Below are positions 1 through 63,642 of a stretch of DNA of 64,000 nucleotides, one piece after another; position 1 is the stretch's first letter, and each line of letters opens with the position of its first letter. Below the pieces are notes generated by a model that did not search any database, was not told where the DNA came from, and saw only the letters and a list, made by a program, of their open reading frames with translations. The translations under genes and the position numbers were made by a program. The stretch is from Octopus vulgaris (lineage: Eukaryota), in NCBI GenBank assembly GCA_951406725.2, contig OX597816.1, positions 123,442,001 through 123,506,000 of the forward strand, given 5' to 3'.

Positions 1-1626
1 TTTGGTGTACCAGATATAATTGTCTCTGATAACAGAAGACAGTTTGTATCCTGTGAGTTTAAAAGATTCTGCGAGATGTTATATAAAACTATAGCAATGT
101 ATCACCCTAGATTGAATGGAAGTGCTGAACGGTTCATGGACACTTTTAAAAAAGCTTTAAAGAAAGCTAATAAGAAAGCCACGGATGAGGTCATGATACA
201 ACAATTCTTAAGGATATACAGGGTAACTCTTGTGGCAGGCTGGATAAAATATGTGATATCAGGTCGATATGATGTAGCCCACTACCAAATGTAGGAGTAA
301 TATTTAAAGGTTCTCACGTCGGAGTAACTAGTGAACATCGAAGAATCAACAACAAGAAGGAAGAAATATTATTTACATACATTTATTCATATGCCTGACA
401 GGTAATTAAAGAGATACAGCAGCAATTCTAGTGATAGTGCCAACAAGGTTGGCTTGCTGGATAGTAGTTGATAGTGTAAAACAAGGTTGTCTGTCAGTAG
501 AGAGTGAAAGAGTAAGGAATGCACGGTGCTGACTAGAAAGGATAAAAATGACATTATCTTTCTTGTGGCCAAGCTAAAGGTGAAGGGAAGTGTTGCTCTT
601 GGTCATGGATGACACAGAAGAGCAAGTTTCTCCTTGGTCTGCTGATACAAAAAAGAGGAAGAGATAGGAAGTGTTCTCTGTTATAAAGACTATGGTCAGT
701 AATGTAGGCCAAACTCTGAACATAGGACTGACCTTTCCTTGACCAGCACAGGTCCTAGGGCATCAAGTGTTTCCTCATTAATCATCTAGTGTGGAGAGGA
801 TTTCCCACTCACTTTAACAAGCAACAAGTGGGTGGATTTGGTTCCAAATATCAGGCAAGGTCAAGCTAGATCCTTACACTCCAAACCCCAAATGCATCAG
901 AAGGAAGTTCACCAGCAGAATCAATGGTTGCCAGAAAGGTGAAGTCAGTATTCGATAAACCACTACCAGGGAAGAAAAAATATGTGGTAACAAAGACATG
1001 CCAAAATTCTTTAGAATAGGTGATAAGGTATATGTAAGAATGAACAAAAATGACAAGCAATACTGGGAAGAAGGAGAAATTGTAACATACATAGGAAGAA
1101 TGATACATGGCCTAAGAAGCAGAAATGGAATGGAAAGAAGATATAGAAATCAGCTTAAGGAAAGAGTCATAGAAAAGAACCAACAAGAGTAGAAATACCA
1201 ATGGATTGGCTATGTGACACTTCAGATTCCAACACCATTACAAGAAGTTGAAACCATATATACAAGGGAAAGGAAGAACACTGGATTCCTAAAAGACCCT
1301 AAGAAGAAAAGATATTGAAAATATATATATATAAAAAAAAGGAGGTGGGGAGAATAAAAGAAATTGATTGTTAATAAAAAATGAAAAGGGGAGTTGTTGT
1401 TTAGTGAAACTGTGCATCCTTTCCAGTAAGAAGTGGTAGTAGCCAGCCATTATAAATTGACCAGTAGCTGGTCAACAGGGAGACAGTTGTGAAAGTTGAG
1501 TATACATGTAGACTGTGTTGATAGTCATATCTGTGCTGATATAATAATTATACTGTGATACTGAGTGGACATTATACTGATCCAACCTTTGGAGGATAAT
1601 AACACTGTACGACTGGAGGTCATACA
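1..1626 (+). mobile_element. Ty3/Gypsy LTR retrotransposon remnant (integrase C-terminus, PPT, probable 3' LTR 1395-1626)
   Basis: Frame 1 reads FGVPDIIVSDNRRQFVSCEFKRFC...YHPRLNGSAERFMDTFKKAL (rve). It resumes at ~879 (PNASEGSSPAESMVARKVKSVFD; FRIGDKVYVR...W..G). Purine tract gaaaaggggag precedes TGT at 1395; ends ACA at 1626. Confidence 0.85.
231..878 (-). mobile_element. Solo-LTR-like insertion inside the Gypsy integrase
   Basis: 648 bp with TG...CA termini, flanked by CTCT (227-230) and CTCC (879-882). It splits the integrase motif YRVT|P; AATAAA lies on the minus strand near 385. Confidence 0.7.
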
Positions 1627-2949
1627 GTGCCAGATAGAGCCATTCTATTGATGACTTTGGAATATAACAATATCTGTCAGAGCAACAACTGTTGTCAAAA
1701 GACAGATATAGAAGTGGTAAAAGACCACTTTACAAGTTTTACAAAGGTTTCAAATGCATTTGATAATAAAAACATGATTCCTGTCAACAAACAAAAAAGC
1801 AGGTTTGATATTTTTGGAATGCTTCAACATTAAAAATAACCACAATAGGATTAAATAAAGTGATTAGTGGACTTATTTGGGGGGTTGGCTATTGTTATTC
1901 TCAGGATGAGCAAGCAAAACTGACAACTTTTCACATACAGAGAAGAAACATGTAATGGATAATAGGATCACTTTAAAAGTGGTTCATTTGAAGATCAATT
2001 GGACAACAACAACTTCCTGTGATTTCCAGCATACTCTAAATATAACAGAGGGAATGAAAGTATAATAAAATGAAGTGGAAAAACTGTGAGATAAGAAAAT
2101 ACTTCAGATAAATTTTCTCAGTGAAGATGAGATGTTCAGAGCTATTTTGAGCTGTACAGAAAATATTTGTTAATTCTTAGCTGTACTAGAACACTTCTAT
2201 TATACATCTTCACAAAAAAAAAAAATGTGAACCTAGGTGACATTTATAATTAATCTTTAGTTCAAATCATAATAAACTTTTGTTGTTGTTGAAAGAAACA
2301 CGTAGAAAGTGATAGCATTCTAGATATATTCGATTCTAGGAAAGAAGGTTTATGCAAAACTTTTAGCACATATTAAGATTGATGTCTTAACTTTTCTCAA
2401 TTGAAATGAAATTAGAATCATGTATTGAACTTAACTTTATAGTGTTAATAAAATTGATAGCAATCTCATTGATTATAAACTTTCTAGCTTGGTGAAAACT
2501 TTGAACCAATTAGCAATAAATGAATAAATAACATAAAAATCAATATATACAATCAAGATGTGTTGTATGTATCCATTTAGATGTATTCATTTTGCTATTC
2601 TTTTTTCATTCTACTCCTTTTATTTTATTTTGCAACTAAGGGCCCAGAAACTGGGGGTGCAGGTGGTGTGCTTGCAGCTGCTAAAATCTTTTTCAGGGGA
2701 CTGCAAAATCAAAATTTGCACCTCCTGTATACTTTGCCTGATTTAGAAAATAGTGTCTAAAAGTTGATCAGTAAAAAGTTGCATGAAGTTAGGTTTCTTA
2801 TCAAATCAAGAACAAAGGGCAAAAGTAAATAAATAAAACAAAAGTCCAAAATGTTAACTGATGAACATGGTCCTAAAATTCCCAAGGGAATTCTAGAAAG
2901 ATATACTACTGTACTAAAGCATCATCAGCATCAAAACTAAAATAATATA

Positions 2950-30721: not shown

Positions 30722-30728
30722 ATATATA

Positions 30729-31268
30729 TAACTTAGAATAACTTATAAAAGTTTTGGCCAGTATTGGCCCAGGCCATGTCTAACTTAATAGCACCACCTG
30801 GTGAAGTCTTTCAGTTCAGGATTTGGGCACCAAGGCCCATTCGAGCAGAGAGTTATTGTTTGCGGAGACATATCCGGGTGTGGGTGGTTTGTCCGGTACT
30901 GTTTGAAGGAATTTGTCCAAAGACTTCTTGAATTTTGTGTGGTCAGTTTCTTTTTTGACGTGTCCTGGTGTAATGTTGAAGAGAGCGGGTCCAATTGAGG
31001 TGAAATAGTTGTGCCATATTGTCGTTATGTGATGCGATTTAGATTTTTGTTGTGGACTGATGGCACGTGGTCCAAGCCTTGGATGTATTTTGAAGGTGAT
31101 GCCAACATCATTCGGACAGTGCTGATGGAATATTTTCCACATCATACAGATAATGTAGCGTTCATGGCATTGTTGGAGTGAATACAATTTCAGCTTCTCT
31201 AGTCTACCCTAGTAGTCAAGGTCTGACATGCCATCTATCTTTTTTGTGATTGACCTTTGGGGAGCTTC
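30729..31268 (-). mobile_element. CR1/L2-group LINE, 5'-truncated copy
   Basis: Near-identical reverse complement of 42073-42613 (YSLQ..ERYIICMMWKI...LLEWALVPKS), flanked by (TA)n. Confidence 0.9.
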
Positions 31269-31379
31269 ATATATATATATATGTATATATATGTATATAT
31301 ATATGTTTATATATATGTGTATATATATATATGTATACATATATACATATATATACATATATATATATGTATATAAAAG

Positions 31380-31713
31380 GGGTAAAGACCCCCTTCGGTC
31401 ATGAATGACCATGGGATTGCACCTAGAAAGTTACCCTCCTAGACACAAGTCCGGGCAAGGTTGTTTATGGAAGGCTAGCAGTCGCCCATGCATACCAGCC
31501 TCCCCTCTCCACGCCACCAGTGTTATCCAAGGGAAAGACAAAGGTCGATACAGCTTGGCACCTGTGACGTCGCAACTCATTTCTACAGCTGAGTGAACTG
31601 GAGCAACGTGAAATAAAGTGCCTTGCTCGAGAACACAACACGCAGCCCGGTCCGGGATTCGAGCTCACAACCTCACGATCGTAAGCTCGACGCTCTAACC
31701 ACTGAGCCATGCG

Positions 31714-36716: not shown

Positions 36717-37020
36717 AGGAGCAATGGCCCAGTGGTTAGGGTAGTGGACTTGCGATCGTAGGATCGCGGTTTCGATTCCCAGACCGAGCGTTGTAAGTGT
36801 TTATTGAGCAAAAACACCTAAAGCTCCACGAGGCTCTGGCAGGGGGTGGTGGTGATCCCTGCTGTATTCTTCCACCACAACTTTCTCTCACTCTTTCTTC
36901 TGTTGGCCTGCTTGCTTAGCCAGCGGGATGGAATCATTGAAGGCTAAAACAATGTGAAGCGCATTGTGACCAGCGATGTGTAGCAACATCTGATGGCCTA
37001 GTTGGTCACGTAATCACGTG
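36717..37020 (+). mobile_element. tRNA-derived SINE (distinct family)
   Basis: A box TGGCCCAGTGG, B box GTTTCGATTCC, CORE-like GTGTTTATTGAGCAAAAACAC. Confidence 0.75.
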
Positions 37021-41536: not shown

Positions 41537-42613
41537 GTCAGCAGTGGTGTCCCACAAGGCACTGTGTTGGGCCCACTTCTCTTCATCATCTACATAAATG
41601 ATATTACTGACACCATCAAACACAGTAACATCAGAACCTTCGCTGATGATTCCAAGCTCCAGAAGGTCATCAATGGCGTGGATGACCGAATAAACCTTCA
41701 GTCAGACCTACTGGCTGTTGTCCAATGGGCGGAAAAGAATAACATGTTGCTAAATGAAGACAAATTTGAACTGATCCACTTTGGAAGGGAGGACGCTCTG
41801 AAACTCCCATACTCTCTTCCTTCTGGAGAAATTCTCATGGCATCCAACAACATCAGAGACCTGGGAGTAACAGTGGACAACAACATAAGCTGGGCTACAC
41901 ATATAAGCAGTAAAGTTGACATGGCCCGCAGAATGTGTTCCTGGATTCTCAGAACCTTCCAGTCGAAGATTCCCACGCTATTATCCTTCTCTTCTCCACT
42001 TTTGCCCGACCCCACCTTGAATACTGCTGTCCACTGTGGTCTCCCTACACAAAACAAAATATTATGAGAATTGAAGGTCCCCAAAGGTCAATCACAAAAA
42101 AGATAGATGGCATGTCAGACATTGACTACTGGGGTAGACTAGAGAAGCTGAAATTGTATTCACTCCAACGACGCCGTGAACGCTACATTATCTGTATGAT
42201 GTGGAAAATATTCCACCAGCACTGTCCGAATGATGTTGGCATCACCTTCAAAATGCATCCAAGGCTCGGACCACGTGCCATCCGTCCACAACAAAAATCT
42301 AAATCGCATCACATAACGACAATACGGCACAACTATTTCACCTCAATTGGACCTGTTCTCTTCAACATTACACCAGGGCACGTCAAAAAAGAAACTGACC
42401 ACACAAAATTCAAGAAGTCTTTGGACAAATTCCTTCAAACAGTACCGGACAAACCACCCACACCCGGATATGTCTCCGCAAACAATAACTCTCTGCTCGA
42501 ATGGGCCTTGGTGCCCAAATCCTGAACTGAAAGACTTCGCCAGGTGGTGCTATTAAGTTAGACATGGCCTGGACCAATACTGGCCAAAACCTTTCTAAGT
42601 TATTCTAAGTTAT
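41537..42613 (+). mobile_element. CR1/L2-group LINE, 5'-truncated, RT C-terminal half with one frameshift (~41965)
   Basis: [20 protein letters not shown]...FADDSKL...LQSDL...RDLGVTVD; second frame [13 protein letters not shown]...LYSLQRRRER; stop at 42525; short UTR and TTCTAAGTTA repeat tail. Confidence 0.95.
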
Positions 42614-47814: not shown

Positions 47815-48425
47815 TTGCATGGCTCAGTGGCTAGAGTGTCAGGCTCACAATCATGGGGCAGTGATTTCGATTCCTGGACCAGACTATGTGTTGTGTTCTT
47901 GAGTAAGACATTTTATTTCACGTTGCTCCAGTTCACTCAGCTGTAGAAATGACGTCACTGATGCCAAGCTGTATCAGCCTTTTCTTTTCTCTTGGATAAT
48001 ATCGGTTGCATGGAAAGGGGAGGCTGGTATGCATGAGCTACTGCTCATAAAACATCCTTCCCTGACTTGTGCCTTGGAGGGTAACTTTCGAGGTGTAATA
48101 TGCCCATGGGCATATGGCGTAGTGGTTAAGAACATGGGCTGCTAACCCCAAGATTCCGAGTTCGATTCCAGACAGTGACCTGAATAATAATAATAATAAT
48201 AATAATAACAACAACAACATTGAAAAATACCTTAGGAACGAGAACCCAGGTTTGAAATTTCCCCAAGACACCTGATGAAGGCTGGAGGGTATATCAGCCG
48301 AAAAATTGTGTGAACAACAAACAAGATGAGGACAAATATCTGTCAAATGTACATAATTCCTCATCTCTTAAATATAGAACTGTGTAATCATGTTGTCATT
48401 CATGACTGAAAGGGTTTTTTACCCC
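47815..48425 (+). mobile_element. tRNA-derived SINE family C, interrupted by the H3 element
   Basis: Head GCATGGCTCAGTGGCTAGAG; body to 48099; tail resumes at 48382 (gtcattcatgactgaaaggg). Confidence 0.8.
48100..48381 (+). mobile_element. H3 element: tRNA-like head + (AAT)n + hammerhead motif (48268-48311), 7-bp TSD
   Basis: A box TGGCGTAGTGG 48115-48125; B box GAGTTCGATTCC 48158-48169; ACAC-CTGATGA-A-GGCTG...CAGCC-GAAA-AA-TT-GTGT; GTGTAAT at 48093-48099 and 48382-48388. Confidence 0.8.
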
Positions 48426-51311: not shown

Positions 51312-51627
51312 AGGCACATGGCTCAGTGGTTAGAGTGTCAGGCTCACAATCATGAGCTAGTGAGTTCAATTCTCAGATCAGGCTCTGTGTTGTGTATTTG
51401 AGCAAGACACTTTATTTCAGCTGTGGAAATGAGATGTGATGTAACTGGTGCAAAGCTGTATTAGCCTTTGCCATTCCAGTGGATAACATCGACGACATGG
51501 AGAGAGGAGGCTGGTATGCATGGGAAACTGCTGGACTTCCATAAAACAACCTTGCCCAGACTTGTGCCTCAGAGGGTAACTTTCTACGTGCAATCCCATG
51601 GTCATTCATGACTGAGGGGGGCTCTTT
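51312..51627 (+). mobile_element. tRNA-derived SINE, family C
   Basis: GGCACATGGCTCAGTGGTTAGAG...GAGTTCAATTC...; uninterrupted tail GTGCAATCCCATGGTCATTCATGAC. Confidence 0.8.
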
Positions 51628-55499: not shown

Positions 55500-55880
55500 T
55501 TATACCATTGATATTTCTGTCTCTCTATTCAGACTTTAGTTTTCCTCTGATACTATAACCATTATTCTTCTAGTGCTGAGATATGTTGCTACAAACCTTT
55601 CATGCTGCAAGAAACGTTAGTACGCTGGGCGAAATGCTTAATGGTATTTTGTCTGCTGAAATAATAGTATTCTTTTATGAGCAGTTATATTAACCAATGG
55701 AAAAACGACAATAATATTTCTTCGGCAATACAACATTACGTCATATTGCCAGCTACCACAAATTGGCGCGTTATTTTAAAATGGCTACTTGCTACAAAAG
55801 TAATATATAACTGAAGATAGGAGGTCTATAATGAACTTTCCAATAATTATTTATTTCTGTCATTTCTTTTATCTTTACAG

Positions 55881-56073
55881 ATCAGTTGCTGAGTGCTTAA
55901 AATGTGGAAGAAGAATTGAAGCAGAAAACTATAGTGATGTCACAATCTACTTCAGTGATATTGTAGGTTTTACTTCCATCTCAGCAATGAGTACAGCCAT
56001 GGAAGTTGTTAACATATTAAATGAACTTTATACAATGTTTGATGCGACCATAGACAACTACGATGTATATAAG
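55881..56073 (+). CDS. Receptor guanylyl cyclase, internal exon: N-terminal part of the cyclase catalytic domain
   Basis: [64 protein letters not shown] contains the class III cyclase [12 protein letters not shown] motif. Acceptor ttttatctttacag; joins exon 15677-15817 as RMLPS-SVAE; homology stops at AAG|GCAAGC. Confidence 0.95.
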
Positions 56074-56599
56074 GCAAGCATGTCTTTTTCCTTTAATATC
56101 AATATCGTTTGAGTGCTATGGCAGGGCAAGTGAATTGTGTGTGAGAGATTATTTATTATCCAAAGGTTGATGGTTTGTATTTTGTTTCTTTTACATCATT
56201 GCAACCATGAAAAAAGCTCTGTTCACATTATTCAGAGTAACTGAATATCATATATAAATTAAGCTTTTTGTTAAATGAAACAGGTATGATTTATAGTTAA
56301 CAAGTAGTATAGGGTGCTATACACTCGGTTTGCTATAACACATTGCCTTTCAGTTCGAAACATTTCATGCTTTTAATTTCCCTGATTCCAGTCACCAGCA
56401 AATATCCTCTTTCCACCTTCCCTCCACATCAAATATACATGTCATCTCACTTCTCTTTGAGTGATATGATATTTCTTTTTGTTATTCCCATCGTTCCATT
56501 CTTTCCAGACCTGCTTTTTTTTTTTTTAGATTCTGTAAAATCTTTATCCACAGAGGTCTTGATCCAGTCACAACTCTGATCTATATCTATCAGCAAATT

Positions 56600-59746: not shown

Positions 59747-60672
59747 TAATGTAGTATCAAAATGTTCCTAGACTAGTTATGTTTAATAAAAAATAACTTA
59801 GTTACCTAAGTTTTAACATCATCTTCTTTGAAATAGTTACCTTGTGCAGTGATACACCAGTCACAGTATTCCTACCATTTTTTGAATCCATCCTGGAAGT
59901 TGTTTGCCATAAGTGAGTCAAGGACCTTCTACAGTTTGATCTGAGTCTTGACAACAGTGTTAAAACGACAGCCTCTGAGCTGCATCTTCATTTTGGGGAA
60001 GAGATGGAAGTCCACAGGAGCTAATTCTGGTGAATAGGGTGGGTGCAGAAGTGATATCATGTTGTTTTTGGTGAGAAACTTATAGGTAAGGAGAGCTCAG
60101 TGATAGGGTGCATTGTCATCACAAAGAATCCAATTCTTCACACTCCACAGATCCTGTTGTTTTCACCGAATGTCCTCCCTCAAACACTTCAAAAAGTTGC
60201 AGTAGAACTCTTGATTGATCTTCTGGCCATGGGGGTGGGGGATGAATTCACAATGCATAACAGCACATTTCCAGGGGTGATGCTTGTGGTAGGTCTTCCA
60301 AATCACTCATCATCTTCCAGGGATGTTCTTCTGCTTTTGAAGCTCCCATGCTACTTGAAACATTGTGCACAATCCATTGCCTCATTGCCATAAGCTTGCC
60401 CAGGCATACTCAATGTCTCTGTAGCAGGCTTCCCAAGTTTAACACAAAATTTCACATTGCCTCTTTGTTCCTTTCCATGACAAGATCGCAGACTACAGCA
60501 GACACATGATCACAAAAACACAAATTTCACAACTTGTGAAGTAAACACAGTGATGTCACTCAGCACACTGCTTCATAAAGATCACTGTTAGGTCTCATTG
60601 CACACATAACCATCTGCTGCCATTTGTTGGTCTGCTACAGAACTAGTCTGGGAAGTTTTTGATACTACCTCG
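59747..60672 (-). mobile_element. mariner (DD34D) transposon, internally deleted, both TIRs recognisable
   Basis: Minus strand DDNAPYH...HPPYSPELAPVDFHLFPKMK...CITAQGNYF. TIR TA-CGAGGTAGTATCAAAAACTTCCCAGACTAGT with partner gtagtatcaaaatgttcctagactagt at 59751. Confidence 0.88.
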
Positions 60673-62092: not shown

Positions 62093-62444
62093 CACACACA
62101 CATGTTTGTGTGAGAGAGAAGAAAAGAGAGAGAGTTGAAGAGTGATAAGGAGGACAATGGATTGGGTTGAGCAAGAGGAGTTTCAAGGCTACCCCATTTG
62201 AAATATGAGTGAGTGAGGGTGTATGAAGTGGTGCAAGAAAAAGAGATAAAAATGATATTTAGCAAAGAGTCAGAGCATACACCTTAAGGCGTTGAGCATA
62301 TGTTCTGGCTCTTTGTCCAAGGAGATGAATAGAAAGTGGTGACAGAAGGATCAGGGAGCATAAGTAAGAGTTGTAAGAGTGTATGTGTTGTGTGGGAAGA
62401 GAATGAATAATAGATAAAATGGAAGCCGTCAATGATAAATAGAT

Positions 62445-63010
62445 GAAGGTAGTCAGTATCTATTAAGCATCAACTACCCCAAAAACATACTATCCACTCC
62501 AATTATGAAGAAAAGAGAGGATGAAACCAATAAACTGTCCACAGTCTGTCTACCCTATGTGAAAGGCCTCTCCGAAAAGTTACAAAAGATATGTGGCCTA
62601 TATGACATCAGGACAGTATTCAAGAGTAATACAATACTTCACAAATATCTCCTTTGAGTAAAACCATCAATAGAAGAGAATATGATCAAAGACTACGTGT
62701 ACTCCATCTCATAAAGTAATGGTAGGTTATACAAAGGCGAAACATGCTATCCCTTCAAAATAAGGGTAGACAAATATCGCACAGCTGTGACGTGAAGAGA
62801 TATTGATAAATCGGGTAGAGCTGATCATGTGTGGAAACATGGAGATCACATCTCTCTGTGGGATGAAGTTAAAATAATAGACAAACACTAATGGAAAATA
62901 CGAAAACTAAAGGATGCAGCACGTATGCTAGGACACAACAACCTCCTAAGCAGACCGAGTGCAGATATGAGCAGCATATGGGAACTGGTATTAAGGAAGG
63001 ATAGGAAAAT
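62445..63010 (+). mobile_element. Penelope-like element 3' ORF remnant (GIY-YIG endonuclease)
   Basis: VCLPYVKGLSEKLQKICGLYDIRTVFK...YVYSIS...LYKGETCYPFKIRVDKY...KSGRADHVWKHGDH...WDEVKIIDK: Penelope/Poseidon-type; several stops. Confidence 0.88.
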
Positions 63011-63045
63011 ATTATATTTATAAGCCCTAAAATTCACTCCGTAAT

Positions 63046-63315
63046 TGCCCACGGGCATATGGCGTAATGGTTAAGAGCATAGGCTACTATCCCCAAGATT
63101 CCGAGTTCAATTCCAAGCAGTGGCCTGAATAATAATAATAACAATAATATTAATAATAATAATAATAACATCAAAAAATACCTTAGGAATGAGAACCCAG
63201 TTTCGAAATTGCCCCAAGACACCTGATGAAGGCTGGAGGGTATATCAGCTGAAACGTTGTGTTAACACAAACAGGATGAGGACAAATATCCGTCAAATGT
63301 AAATAATGTAAATAT
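63046..63315 (+). mobile_element. H3 element (tRNA-like head + hammerhead) forming the probable pseudo-LTR of the adjacent PLE
   Basis: Close copy of 48100-48360, starting ~35 bp after the end of the GIY-YIG homology. Confidence 0.8.
63218..63263 (+). ncRNA. Minimal type I hammerhead ribozyme motif (family H3, intact core)
   Basis: GACAC-CTGATGA-A-GGCTG(gagggtatat)CAGCT-GAAA-CG-TT-GTGTT: canonical CUGAUGA and GAAA, UH = UU, palindromic AACGTT stem III. Confidence 0.8.
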
Positions 63316-63642
63316 TTCACTAGTATACTTTATTTTTAAGGTCTGAAAACATTCTAGTTCAAGTCTACCTTTGTTATAATGACAATTTGTGCAATCATTC
63401 CTGTTAATATCATTCAGATACTTTCATCTCCCATGGCAATGTACATATTTTTGAACAGCTGATGAGGATATAGGTGTGATACCTTCCAGACGGATATAGC
63501 ACAATTAACATTTTTATCACAATGTGTATGATTAGTGGCTCCCTTATCTCTCTTGTTGACCAAATAATTTGTAGTTGTCTTGTGTTCTTTCTTGGTGAGA
63601 TTTGATGTGTTTCAAGAGAAGCTATTTTTCCTATCAATACTC

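What the first reader, a model, noticed from the sequence alone, without database searches (positions are those of the whole stretch)
62445..63315. Penelope ORF ends directly in the tRNA-headed hammerhead unit, identifying the likely autonomous partner
Seen: a GIY-YIG remnant is followed within ~35 bp, same strand, by a second H3 copy with an intact core (CUGAUGA...GAAAC-GUU, palindromic AACGTT). Established: such one-base-pair stem III hammerheads in PLEs cleave as dimers. Inference: this PLE's pseudo-LTR contains a captured tRNA-like Pol III promoter, giving a route from PLE to SINE-like element.
Basis: partly seen in the sequence, partly recalled or inferred. Interest (0 to 1): 0.75.

Follow-up and report, generated by a model that had tools for sequence, protein, structure and literature searches.

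The report
Penelope retrotransposon with tRNA-type promoter
A Penelope-like jumping gene in an octopus-type genome carries, as a fixed part of its terminal repeat, a tRNA-derived promoter signature in front of its ribozyme and likely start codon, and an unrelated-host Penelope lineage shows the same layout, which suggests these protein-coding elements are likely transcribed by RNA polymerase III rather than II.

Summary
Observation confirmed: a 5'-truncated, decayed Penelope-like (PLE) GIY-YIG remnant (62452-63023) is followed 29 nt later by a tRNA-like head (A box 63060, B box 63104), (AAT)n and a minimal type I hammerhead (cut site after U63258). It is no chance neighbour: contigs of other copies (81-91% alike) from four runs cross from ORF into head, and none of the 11 listed pieces reaching the stop leaves before the head. 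The unit's 3' half translates like the N-terminus of full-length PLE proteins, so the unit is the element's own pseudo-LTR, not a separate SINE with a 'partner'; a free SINE burst is not shown. New: a second, distant PLE lineage (3 of 10 distinct metagenome loci holding a 3' end) has the same stop-head-(AAT)n-ATG-hammerhead order, a different tRNA source, an invariant A-box block, and both lineages lack TTTT runs (0 in 2.4 kb ORF; head-less relatives 62 in 11.2 kb). Best reading: a captured Pol III promoter drives the tandem element. Transcription, cleavage and full-length T-run absence are untested. Ten paper searches found no description; Repbase/Dfam could not be checked.

The parts
62452..63023 (+). 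5'-truncated, decayed PLE ORF: RT-EN linker and GIY-YIG endonuclease, four internal stops, stop codon 63021-63023; left edge approximate (62452-62458)
   Evidence: other copies continue upstream of 62458 (loose ends)
63024..63052 (+). Linker between stop and head, part of the repeat family; its 3' end is a short imperfect inverted copy of the head's first bases
   Evidence: site 63041 covered by 125/118/124/60 contigs (counted to 128) in X1/X8/X12/X15; hairpin
63053..63125 (+). tRNA-derived head with A box 63060-63070 and B box 63104-63114 (33-nt spacer); no longer folds as a cloverleaf
   Evidence: consensus spacing 30-35 nt in PMC8969392; tRNA profile E 2e-4; fold z-score +1.25
63128..63169 (+). 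(AAT)n tract between head and start codon
   Evidence: sequence; same tract at the same place in L003, L005, L006
63189..63191 (+). Candidate start codon of the PLE ORF as it would be read in a tandem (pLTR-ORF) copy; ACG in the 48100 copy
   Evidence: in frame with the hammerhead-spanning peptide; in-frame ATG at the same place in L003, L005, L006; inference
63219..63263 (+). Minimal type I hammerhead, core 63223-63229 and 63251-63258, palindromic 15.2/16.2, predicted cut after U63258; lies inside the predicted coding start
   Evidence: covariation across 7 sequences, 96.8% of cells paired, 8 of 9 pairs with two-sided changes, 0/500 shuffles
63259..63318 (+). 3' end of the element = first codons of the ORF body; copies end at 63310-63318, some with a further ~25-nt tail
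   Evidence: heterogeneous loose ends behind 63310/63314, common tail behind 63318; translation matches PLE N-termini
48100..48381 (+). Stand-alone copy of the unit with the optional tail, inserted into another SINE-like repeat; 7-bp target duplication at 48093-48099 and 48382-48388; starts 8 nt upstream of the head, 15 nt upstream of the A box

Best explanation
The locus is the decayed 3' end of one Penelope-like retrotransposon whose pseudo-LTR contains a tRNA-derived A/B-box head, and that head likely serves as an RNA polymerase III promoter for the whole tandem element. Shown: ORF, linker, head, (AAT)n and hammerhead travel together in other copies, and the unit's 3' half is the start of the ORF. 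Inferred: in a tandem copy Pol III would start just upstream of the head of the upstream pLTR, read about 150 nt of leader to the ATG, and run through a T4-free ORF into the next pLTR; the hammerhead, predicted to cut only as a dimer or with protein help, would sever the start codon from the rest of the frame; the element's RT/endonuclease would prime near the tail, giving many short 5'-truncated copies such as the one at 48100, some of which may come from head-initiated transcripts.
For: Linkage: of the 32 pieces listed (of 74,439), 11 reach the stop; 8 carry 31+ nt on both sides of it, 5 run 31+ nt into the head (X1 rec 8, X12 rec 16, X15 rec 24, X8 recs 31, 32), all with 13-38 other letters, and none leaves the stretch between stop and head; depth is continuous over the linker and near zero outside the element. 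pLTR: five unit translations align best to residues 6-66 of the 861-aa PLE protein P0170 (shuffles reaching the score: L003 0/1000, L006 0/1000, L005 4/1000, 48100 copy 31/1000, 63053 copy 84/1000) and the tail peptide matches P0009 residues 13-23 (2/400); published PLE pLTRs include the first codons (PMC3846280, PMC11167929). Recurrence: L003, L005, L006, 40-45% identical to the query protein and 71-78% to each other in DNA, show the same order; their A-box block is invariant in 22 of 22 columns and the B-box region in 25 of 31, against 46 of 157 third codon positions and 10 of 22 in the intron-like stretch. T-runs: 0 TTTT in 2424 nt of headed ORF and Phe TTT/TTC 0/11, against 62 in 11,226 nt and 113/59 in 11 head-less loci, each of which has at least 2; the element lies in the second-longest T4-free stretch of the window. 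Oligo-T as exclusion test for Pol III is used in PMC4494074.
Against: No transcript evidence. Only the last fifth of the ORF is in hand for any headed element, and no tandem pLTR-ORF copy of this family was read as DNA. Headed ORFs are T-poor in general (other NNT/NNC codons are also shifted); against their own base make-up the absence of T4 is weak (window P=0.105; four elements jointly 0.007 but three are related), CpG decay inflates T in the window copy, and an A-rich retroelement remnant at 148-1736 is T4-free over 1589 nt. The four headed loci are only two independent lineages. For the window family the N-terminal match is modest and partly forced by the ribozyme core. The one PLE promoter tested is of the Inr/DPE type (PMC2377424). 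How an uncapped Pol III RNA would be translated is unexplained.
Confidence: 0.55

Rival explanations
1. The head is an active Pol III promoter but only for short unit-length RNAs (head to tail), which the PLE enzyme mobilises as SINE- or retrozyme-like copies; the ORF is transcribed by Pol II or read-through.
For: The 48100 copy starts 15 nt upstream of the A box, has a target duplication and no ORF; no T4 within either unit; Pol III plus hammerhead SINEs exist in Schistosoma (PMC6765202); retrozymes derive from pLTRs (bioRxiv 10.64898/2026.07.22.740005).
Against: Summed depth at 63067 (A box) versus 63041 (linker) is 0.88, 0.76 and 1.07 in the three DNA runs, and no loose-end pile at the head start is among those listed (1675 rows not shown; depth is no copy number). 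It does not explain the T4-free ORFs.
Confidence: 0.17
2. A SINE head once inserted into the 3' region of a master PLE copy and has been carried along as a passenger; it has no role in the element's expression.
For: tRNA-headed SINE-like repeats are common in this window (further tRNA-profile hits at 31711, 36722, 47819, 51317), so capture is easy; the linker's inverted copy of the head start looks like an insertion junction; in the window family selection on the boxes was not measured.
Against: Box-specific conservation over 22-29% DNA divergence in L003/5/6; the same position, between stop and (AAT)n-ATG, in two distant lineages; T-run depletion.
Confidence: 0.14
3. The module is functional but not as a promoter: it acts as a TFIIIC-bound boundary in chromatin or as an RNA structure cut by tRNA-processing enzymes to define transcript ends alongside the hammerhead.
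For: Would also keep the boxes conserved; earlier unverified scan notes describe tRNA modules in hammerhead-free PLE-type repeats.
Against: Acceptor and T stems are poorly paired, no tRNA fold is predicted; does not predict T4-free ORFs.
Confidence: 0.11
4. Chance adjacency of an independent SINE-like unit and an unrelated PLE fragment at this one locus.
For: A copy of the unit exists without ORF at 48100.
Against: Diverged contigs from four runs bridge ORF and head; linker is multi-copy; unit encodes a PLE N-terminus.
Confidence: 0.02

Closest known systems
Canonical EN+ Penelope-like elements of the Penelope/Poseidon type (PAc of Anolis, PMC11167929; Adineta Penelope families, PMC3846280; D. 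virilis Penelope, PMC2377424)
   Same: Single RT + C-terminal GIY-YIG ORF without a Zn-finger linker (relatives); 5' truncation; pLTR holding a minimal hammerhead and the first codons; optional 3' tail; target duplication.
   Different: Described pLTR promoters are Inr/DPE or TATA/Inr-like; none of the passages read mentions a tRNA-derived A/B-box head or T4-free ORF. Start codon here lies about 34 nt upstream of the ribozyme core.
Minimal hammerheads of metazoan PLEs (Cervera and de la Pena 2014, PMC4209133)
   Same: Type I, long stem II, extra base after A9, palindromic 15.2/16.2, short stem I, mostly dispersed single copies from truncated PLEs.
   Different: Nothing different in the ribozyme; U at position 17 and a G-U closing pair in this copy. 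Activity not assayed.
Schistosoma SM-alpha/Sj-alpha SINE-like hammerhead repeats (as reviewed in PMC6765202)
   Same: Pol III-type promoter followed by a hammerhead; upstream unit transcribes the downstream one.
   Different: Non-coding tandem repeats with canonical hammerheads; here the same pairing is the terminus of a protein-coding autonomous element.
Animal non-LTR retrozymes (PMC7229834; bioRxiv 10.64898/2026.07.22.740005)
   Same: Hammerhead units related to PLE pLTRs.
   Different: Tandem, non-coding, reported to lack recognisable promoters (PMC7761336); the unit here is not tandem in the window and has A/B boxes.
R2 retrotransposons (HDV-like ribozyme; Pol I co-transcription recalled, ribozyme in PMC6765202)
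   Same: Functional analogy: a protein-coding retroelement expressed without a Pol II cap, with a self-cleaving RNA near its 5' end.
   Different: Different polymerase, ribozyme, enzyme family and target.

Membership tests
EN+ Penelope-like element | C-terminal GIY-YIG endonuclease in one ORF with RT | tested here: met
   Remnant 56% identical to C-terminus of RT-bearing P0002/P0009/P0017; RT itself is absent from this truncated copy
EN+ Penelope-like element | Hammerhead near the 3' end, in the pLTR | tested here: met
   linkage
EN+ Penelope-like element | pLTR includes the first codons of the ORF, optional 30-40 nt tail | tested here: met
   (window family modest: 31/1000 and 2/400 shuffles); tail and at 48357-48381
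EN+ Penelope-like element | Tandem pLTR-ORF-pLTR copies of this family seen as DNA | not testable with these tools
   No genome held; loose ends limited to 30 letters
Penelope/Poseidon clade (versus Neptune/Nematis) | [quoted passage not shown] | tested here: met
   No C-x2-5-C-x2-C in P0170, P0009, P0017, P0073, P0130, P0001; no reference clade sequences were in the tree
tRNA-derived SINE | A and B boxes at tRNA spacing | tested here: met
   33-nt spacer
tRNA-derived SINE | Non-coding, amplified independently from a start at the head | tested here: inconclusive
   One such copy (48100); no step in depth at the head in three DNA runs; unit's 3' half is coding sequence
Pol III transcription unit | No T4+ run on the sense strand of the transcribed region | tested here: inconclusive
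   Met for all 867 nt in hand and for L003/5/6, but four fifths of the ORF unseen and composition explains part
Pol III transcription unit | Pol III-dependent initiation | not testable with these tools
   needs 5' RACE, ChIP or reporter
Minimal type I hammerhead | Conserved core, stems I and II, palindromic stem III positions | tested here: met
Minimal type I hammerhead | Self-cleavage as a dimer | not testable with these tools
   not assayed; unconstrained co-fold did not give the dimer
Non-LTR retrozyme | Tandem non-coding hammerhead repeats | tested here: not met
   Both window copies are single; unit is linked to an ORF

The most novel reading that the evidence does not exclude
At least two distant lineages of autonomous Penelope-like retrotransposons have independently captured tRNA genes (one intron-less, one intron-bearing pre-tRNA) as pLTR promoters and purged Pol III terminators from their ORFs, so that a 3-kb, 850-codon message is made by RNA polymerase III and translated without a cap, with the hammerhead acting as a switch that removes the start codon; such pLTRs are a ready source of tRNA-headed, PLE-mobilised SINE-like repeats.
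Probability: 0.38. Interest if true: 0.88.

Novelty: new variant of a known kind. Interest (0 to 1): 0.72.

Why it matters
PLE promoters have been dissected in essentially one element, and the role of PLE hammerheads is an open question in the papers read. A natural protein-coding retrotransposon run by Pol III would be unusual, would explain how tRNA-plus-hammerhead repeats such as the schistosome SINEs and other tRNA-bearing PLE-type repeats arise, and makes sharp tests available: T-run content of full-length copies, box mutants, Pol III inhibition. It also means that some repeats annotated as tRNA-SINEs in octopus may be truncated PLE ends. If the head is only a passenger, the locus is an ordinary decayed PLE.

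Tried and rejected
Whole genome not held. Rfam and ARAGORN gave no tRNA or hammerhead call on any unit; MFE folding gave no cloverleaf and no significant z-score. No RNA holder listed; run X15 is RNA only by guess, and its relatively higher depth over head and 3' part is not used as evidence. Scans of viral contigs and prokaryote genomes for relatives or for the unit were empty. A profile of the L003/5/6 3' region ranks the two window units first but only at E 0.012 and 0.04 with (AAT)n bias, and linker+head alone gives no hit: sequence homology of the two heads is not shown; their best tRNA matches differ (intron-bearing Tyr/Val-type versus intron-less), so I rejected 'one conserved head' in favour of probable separate captures, while the tree leaves one gain plus one loss open. 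tRNA isotype of the window head could not be fixed (best hit a viral suppressor-type tRNA); the tRNA set was chosen with head-derived patterns, so those scores are partly circular. A second hammerhead-like core downstream in L006 was set aside because the same bases encode a peptide shared with P0170. BLASTP of the 48-aa unit peptide against P0170 gave only E 0.086. No convincing target duplication for the 62452-63318 copy. Searches of earlier findings by place and sequence were empty.

Full report
What is there. The window is AT-rich animal DNA; the closest named relatives of the protein are from Octopus sinensis (68%) and O. vulgaris (73%), so I call it octopus-type. 62439-63023 reads in one frame with four internal stops and matches the last 180 residues of RT-bearing proteins at 56%; a GIY-YIG-like motif is present though Pfam gives no hit on the remnant. 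Other copies continue upstream of 62458 (loose ends), so this copy is 5'-truncated. After the stop (63021-63023) come a 29-nt linker, a tRNA-like head from 63053 with A box 63060-63070 and B box 63104-63114, an (AAT)n tract, and a minimal type I hammerhead 63219-63263. The A+B pattern occurs 3 times in the window and never in 100 shuffles; the 33-nt spacer fits the consensus quoted in PMC8969392. Patterns taken from the heads retrieve tRNA genes in 85 of 86 and 119 of 120 viral loci, and a profile of 159 such tRNAs hits both window heads (E 2e-4, 6e-5) as well as other SINE-like heads; this is partly circular. Rfam, ARAGORN and folding see no intact tRNA. A second copy of the unit, 87% identical, lies at 48100-48381 inside another repeat, with a 7-bp target duplication, a tail, no ORF and a broken stem III palindrome.

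Is the unit part of the PLE? No genome was held, so I laid contigs of four runs (three organism labels) on 62400-63360 at 80% likeness. Depth is near zero outside the element and continuous across the linker; site 63041 is covered by 125, 118, 124 and 60 contigs (counted to 128). Of 32 listed pieces (74,407 more not shown, the longest kept), 11 reach the stop codon, 8 have 31 or more letters on both sides, 5 run 31 or more letters into the head; they differ from the window at 13-38 letters, so they are other copies, and none of the 11 leaves the stretch between stop and head. Heterogeneous loose ends pile up behind 63310-63314 and a shared tail behind 63318: the element's 3' end. The listed loose ends near 63267 show that other copies keep the palindromic core and a G-C closing pair. 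Chance adjacency is refuted.

Is it the pseudo-LTR? Published PLE pLTRs contain the first codons of the ORF, the tail adding more (PMC3846280; PMC11167929, where the hammerhead cut lies 26 bp after the start codon). The frame through the hammerhead core aligns best to residues 6-66 of the 861-aa PLE protein P0170 for all five units tested (shuffles reaching the score: 31/1000 and 84/1000 for the window copies, 0, 4 and 0/1000 for L003, L005, L006), and the tail peptide matches residues 13-23 of the sister-family protein P0009 (2 of 400 shuffles). An in-frame ATG lies between (AAT)n and the ribozyme at 63189 (ACG in the other copy) and in L003, L005 and L006. Part of the match is forced by the ribozyme core, and BLASTP alone gives E 0.086. 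I conclude that in tandem copies the head lies about 130 nt upstream of the start codon, where PLE promoters sit; no such tandem copy of this family was read as DNA.

A second lineage. A metagenome scan gave 26 loci; 14 hold the ORF's end, 10 of them distinct. Three (L003, L005, L006) show stop, 15-45 nt, tRNA-like head, (AAT)n-like tract, ATG, minimal hammerhead; L003 was missed by my regular expression and found by eye. The tRNA profile confirms these three (E 6e-9 to 6e-5) and finds no head between stop and ribozyme in the other seven. They are 71-78% identical in DNA, with the A-box block invariant in 22 of 22 columns and the B-box region in 25 of 31, against 10 of 22 in the intron-like stretch, 19 of 43 in the spacer and 46 of 157 third codon positions; the stop-to-head linker is also well kept (29 of 34). 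Hammerhead stems covary across 7 sequences (96.8% paired, 8 of 9 pairs with two-sided changes, 0/500 shuffles; structure named by me). On an endonuclease-domain tree (56 rows; 30 near-duplicates dropped) the window protein sits in a 100/100 clade with P0010 and P0017 families, L003/5/6 in a separate 100/97 clade; the head label needs two changes, starred branches force only one, and five head-less rows share one clade, so two gains or one gain and one loss both fit. The heads resemble different tRNAs and are not detectably homologous, which favours two captures. The 3' regions of the window's nearest protein relatives are unknown.

Pol III terminators. Headed ORFs have no T4 run in 2424 nt and use Phe TTT/TTC 0/11; 11 head-less loci have 62 runs in 11,226 nt, at least 2 each, and 113/59 (seven duplicate loci and three without a 3' end left out, L022/L025 gave no aligned segment). 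The window element lies in a 1302-nt T4-free stretch, second longest of either strand, in a window with about 9 runs per kb; TT is depleted (30 versus 48.7, P<=0.0005). Against: headed ORFs are T-poor throughout, so relative to their own composition the absence is weak (P 0.105 for the window, 0.007 jointly for four elements of which three are related); CpG decay inflates T here; the longest T4-free stretch (148-1736) is an unrelated A-rich remnant; only the ORF's last fifth was seen. The signal is suggestive, not decisive.

Mechanism. Shown: linkage, order of parts, boxes, ribozyme motif, recurrence, box conservation in the second lineage. Inferred: Pol III initiation at the upstream pLTR head, read-through of the ORF, cap-independent translation from the ATG after (AAT)n, dimer- or protein-assisted cleavage (PMC4209133 reports no monomer activity and low dimer activity; PMC11167929 protein-assisted cleavage not needed for insertion in vitro), priming near the tail. 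I give 0.93 to 'the unit is the element's own pLTR' and 0.55 to the whole reading.

Literature. Ten full-text searches returned no paper describing a tRNA-derived head in an autonomous PLE. Seen: parts 1-2 of 4 of PMC4209133 and of PMC11167929; part 1 of 5 and passages of bioRxiv 10.64898/2026.07.22.740005; passages of PMC8557442, PMC6765202, PMC7761336, PMC7229834, PMC8969392, PMC8967140, PMC2377424, PMC4494074, PMC3846280. Lunse et al. 2017 was not held and is known only through the review. No supplements were read; Repbase, Dfam, SINEBase and the older octopus SINE papers (recalled to exist) could not be checked, and the unit may be catalogued there as a SINE or a Penelope end. Three earlier scan notes on tRNA-bearing PLE-type non-coding repeats in other animals are unverified leads that would fit a PLE pLTR source.

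Verdict. A new variant of a known kind: ordinary PLE anatomy plus a tRNA-type promoter module, in two lineages, with a testable Pol III hypothesis. Interest 0.72.

Noticed in passing
window 63036-63062 and 48098-48115: Short palindrome formed by the head's first bases and an inverted copy just upstream; resembles the palindromic junctions reported for PLE insertions and may record how the head was captured.
   Followed up: partly
window 63200-63212: A second B-box-like word between (AAT)n and the hammerhead, clearer in other copies (loose-end cell at 63212); it overlaps the predicted coding start.
   Followed up: no
L006 895-930; L003 and L005 same place: Second hammerhead-like core about 57 nt after the first, complete in L006, with a U3-A8 variant in L005; may only reflect coding constraint.
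   Followed up: partly
L003 853-866, L005, L006 equivalents: Small hairpin just upstream of the hammerhead with compensatory changes among the three loci.
   Followed up: no
L003/L005/L006 heads: Extra 17-20 nt where a pre-tRNA intron would lie; best matches include intron-bearing tRNA-Tyr genes.
   Followed up: partly
window 63027-63045 versus L003 653-672: The stop-to-head linkers of the two lineages look alike by eye in the alignment but a profile search does not support it.
   Followed up: partly
window 55804-56112: Guanylate cyclase catalytic-domain exon on the + strand (Pfam PF00211, E 2.5e-14); the PLE copies may be intronic.
   Followed up: no
window 59800-60640 (- strand): Decayed mariner-like transposase by eye (family label recalled).
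   Followed up: no
window 30728-31269 and 42072-42613: 542-nt inverted pair, 97% complementary, 10.8 kb apart.
   Followed up: no
window 1-1736: A-rich retroelement remnant with integrase-like reading at its start; longest T4-free stretch of the window.
   Followed up: partly
window 31647-31711, 36722-36785, 47819-47880, 51317-51374: Other tRNA-headed SINE-like repeats.
   Followed up: no
L001 2089-3009: Head-less relative showing the standard tandem layout directly: hammerhead followed by the start of a second ORF copy.
   Followed up: partly
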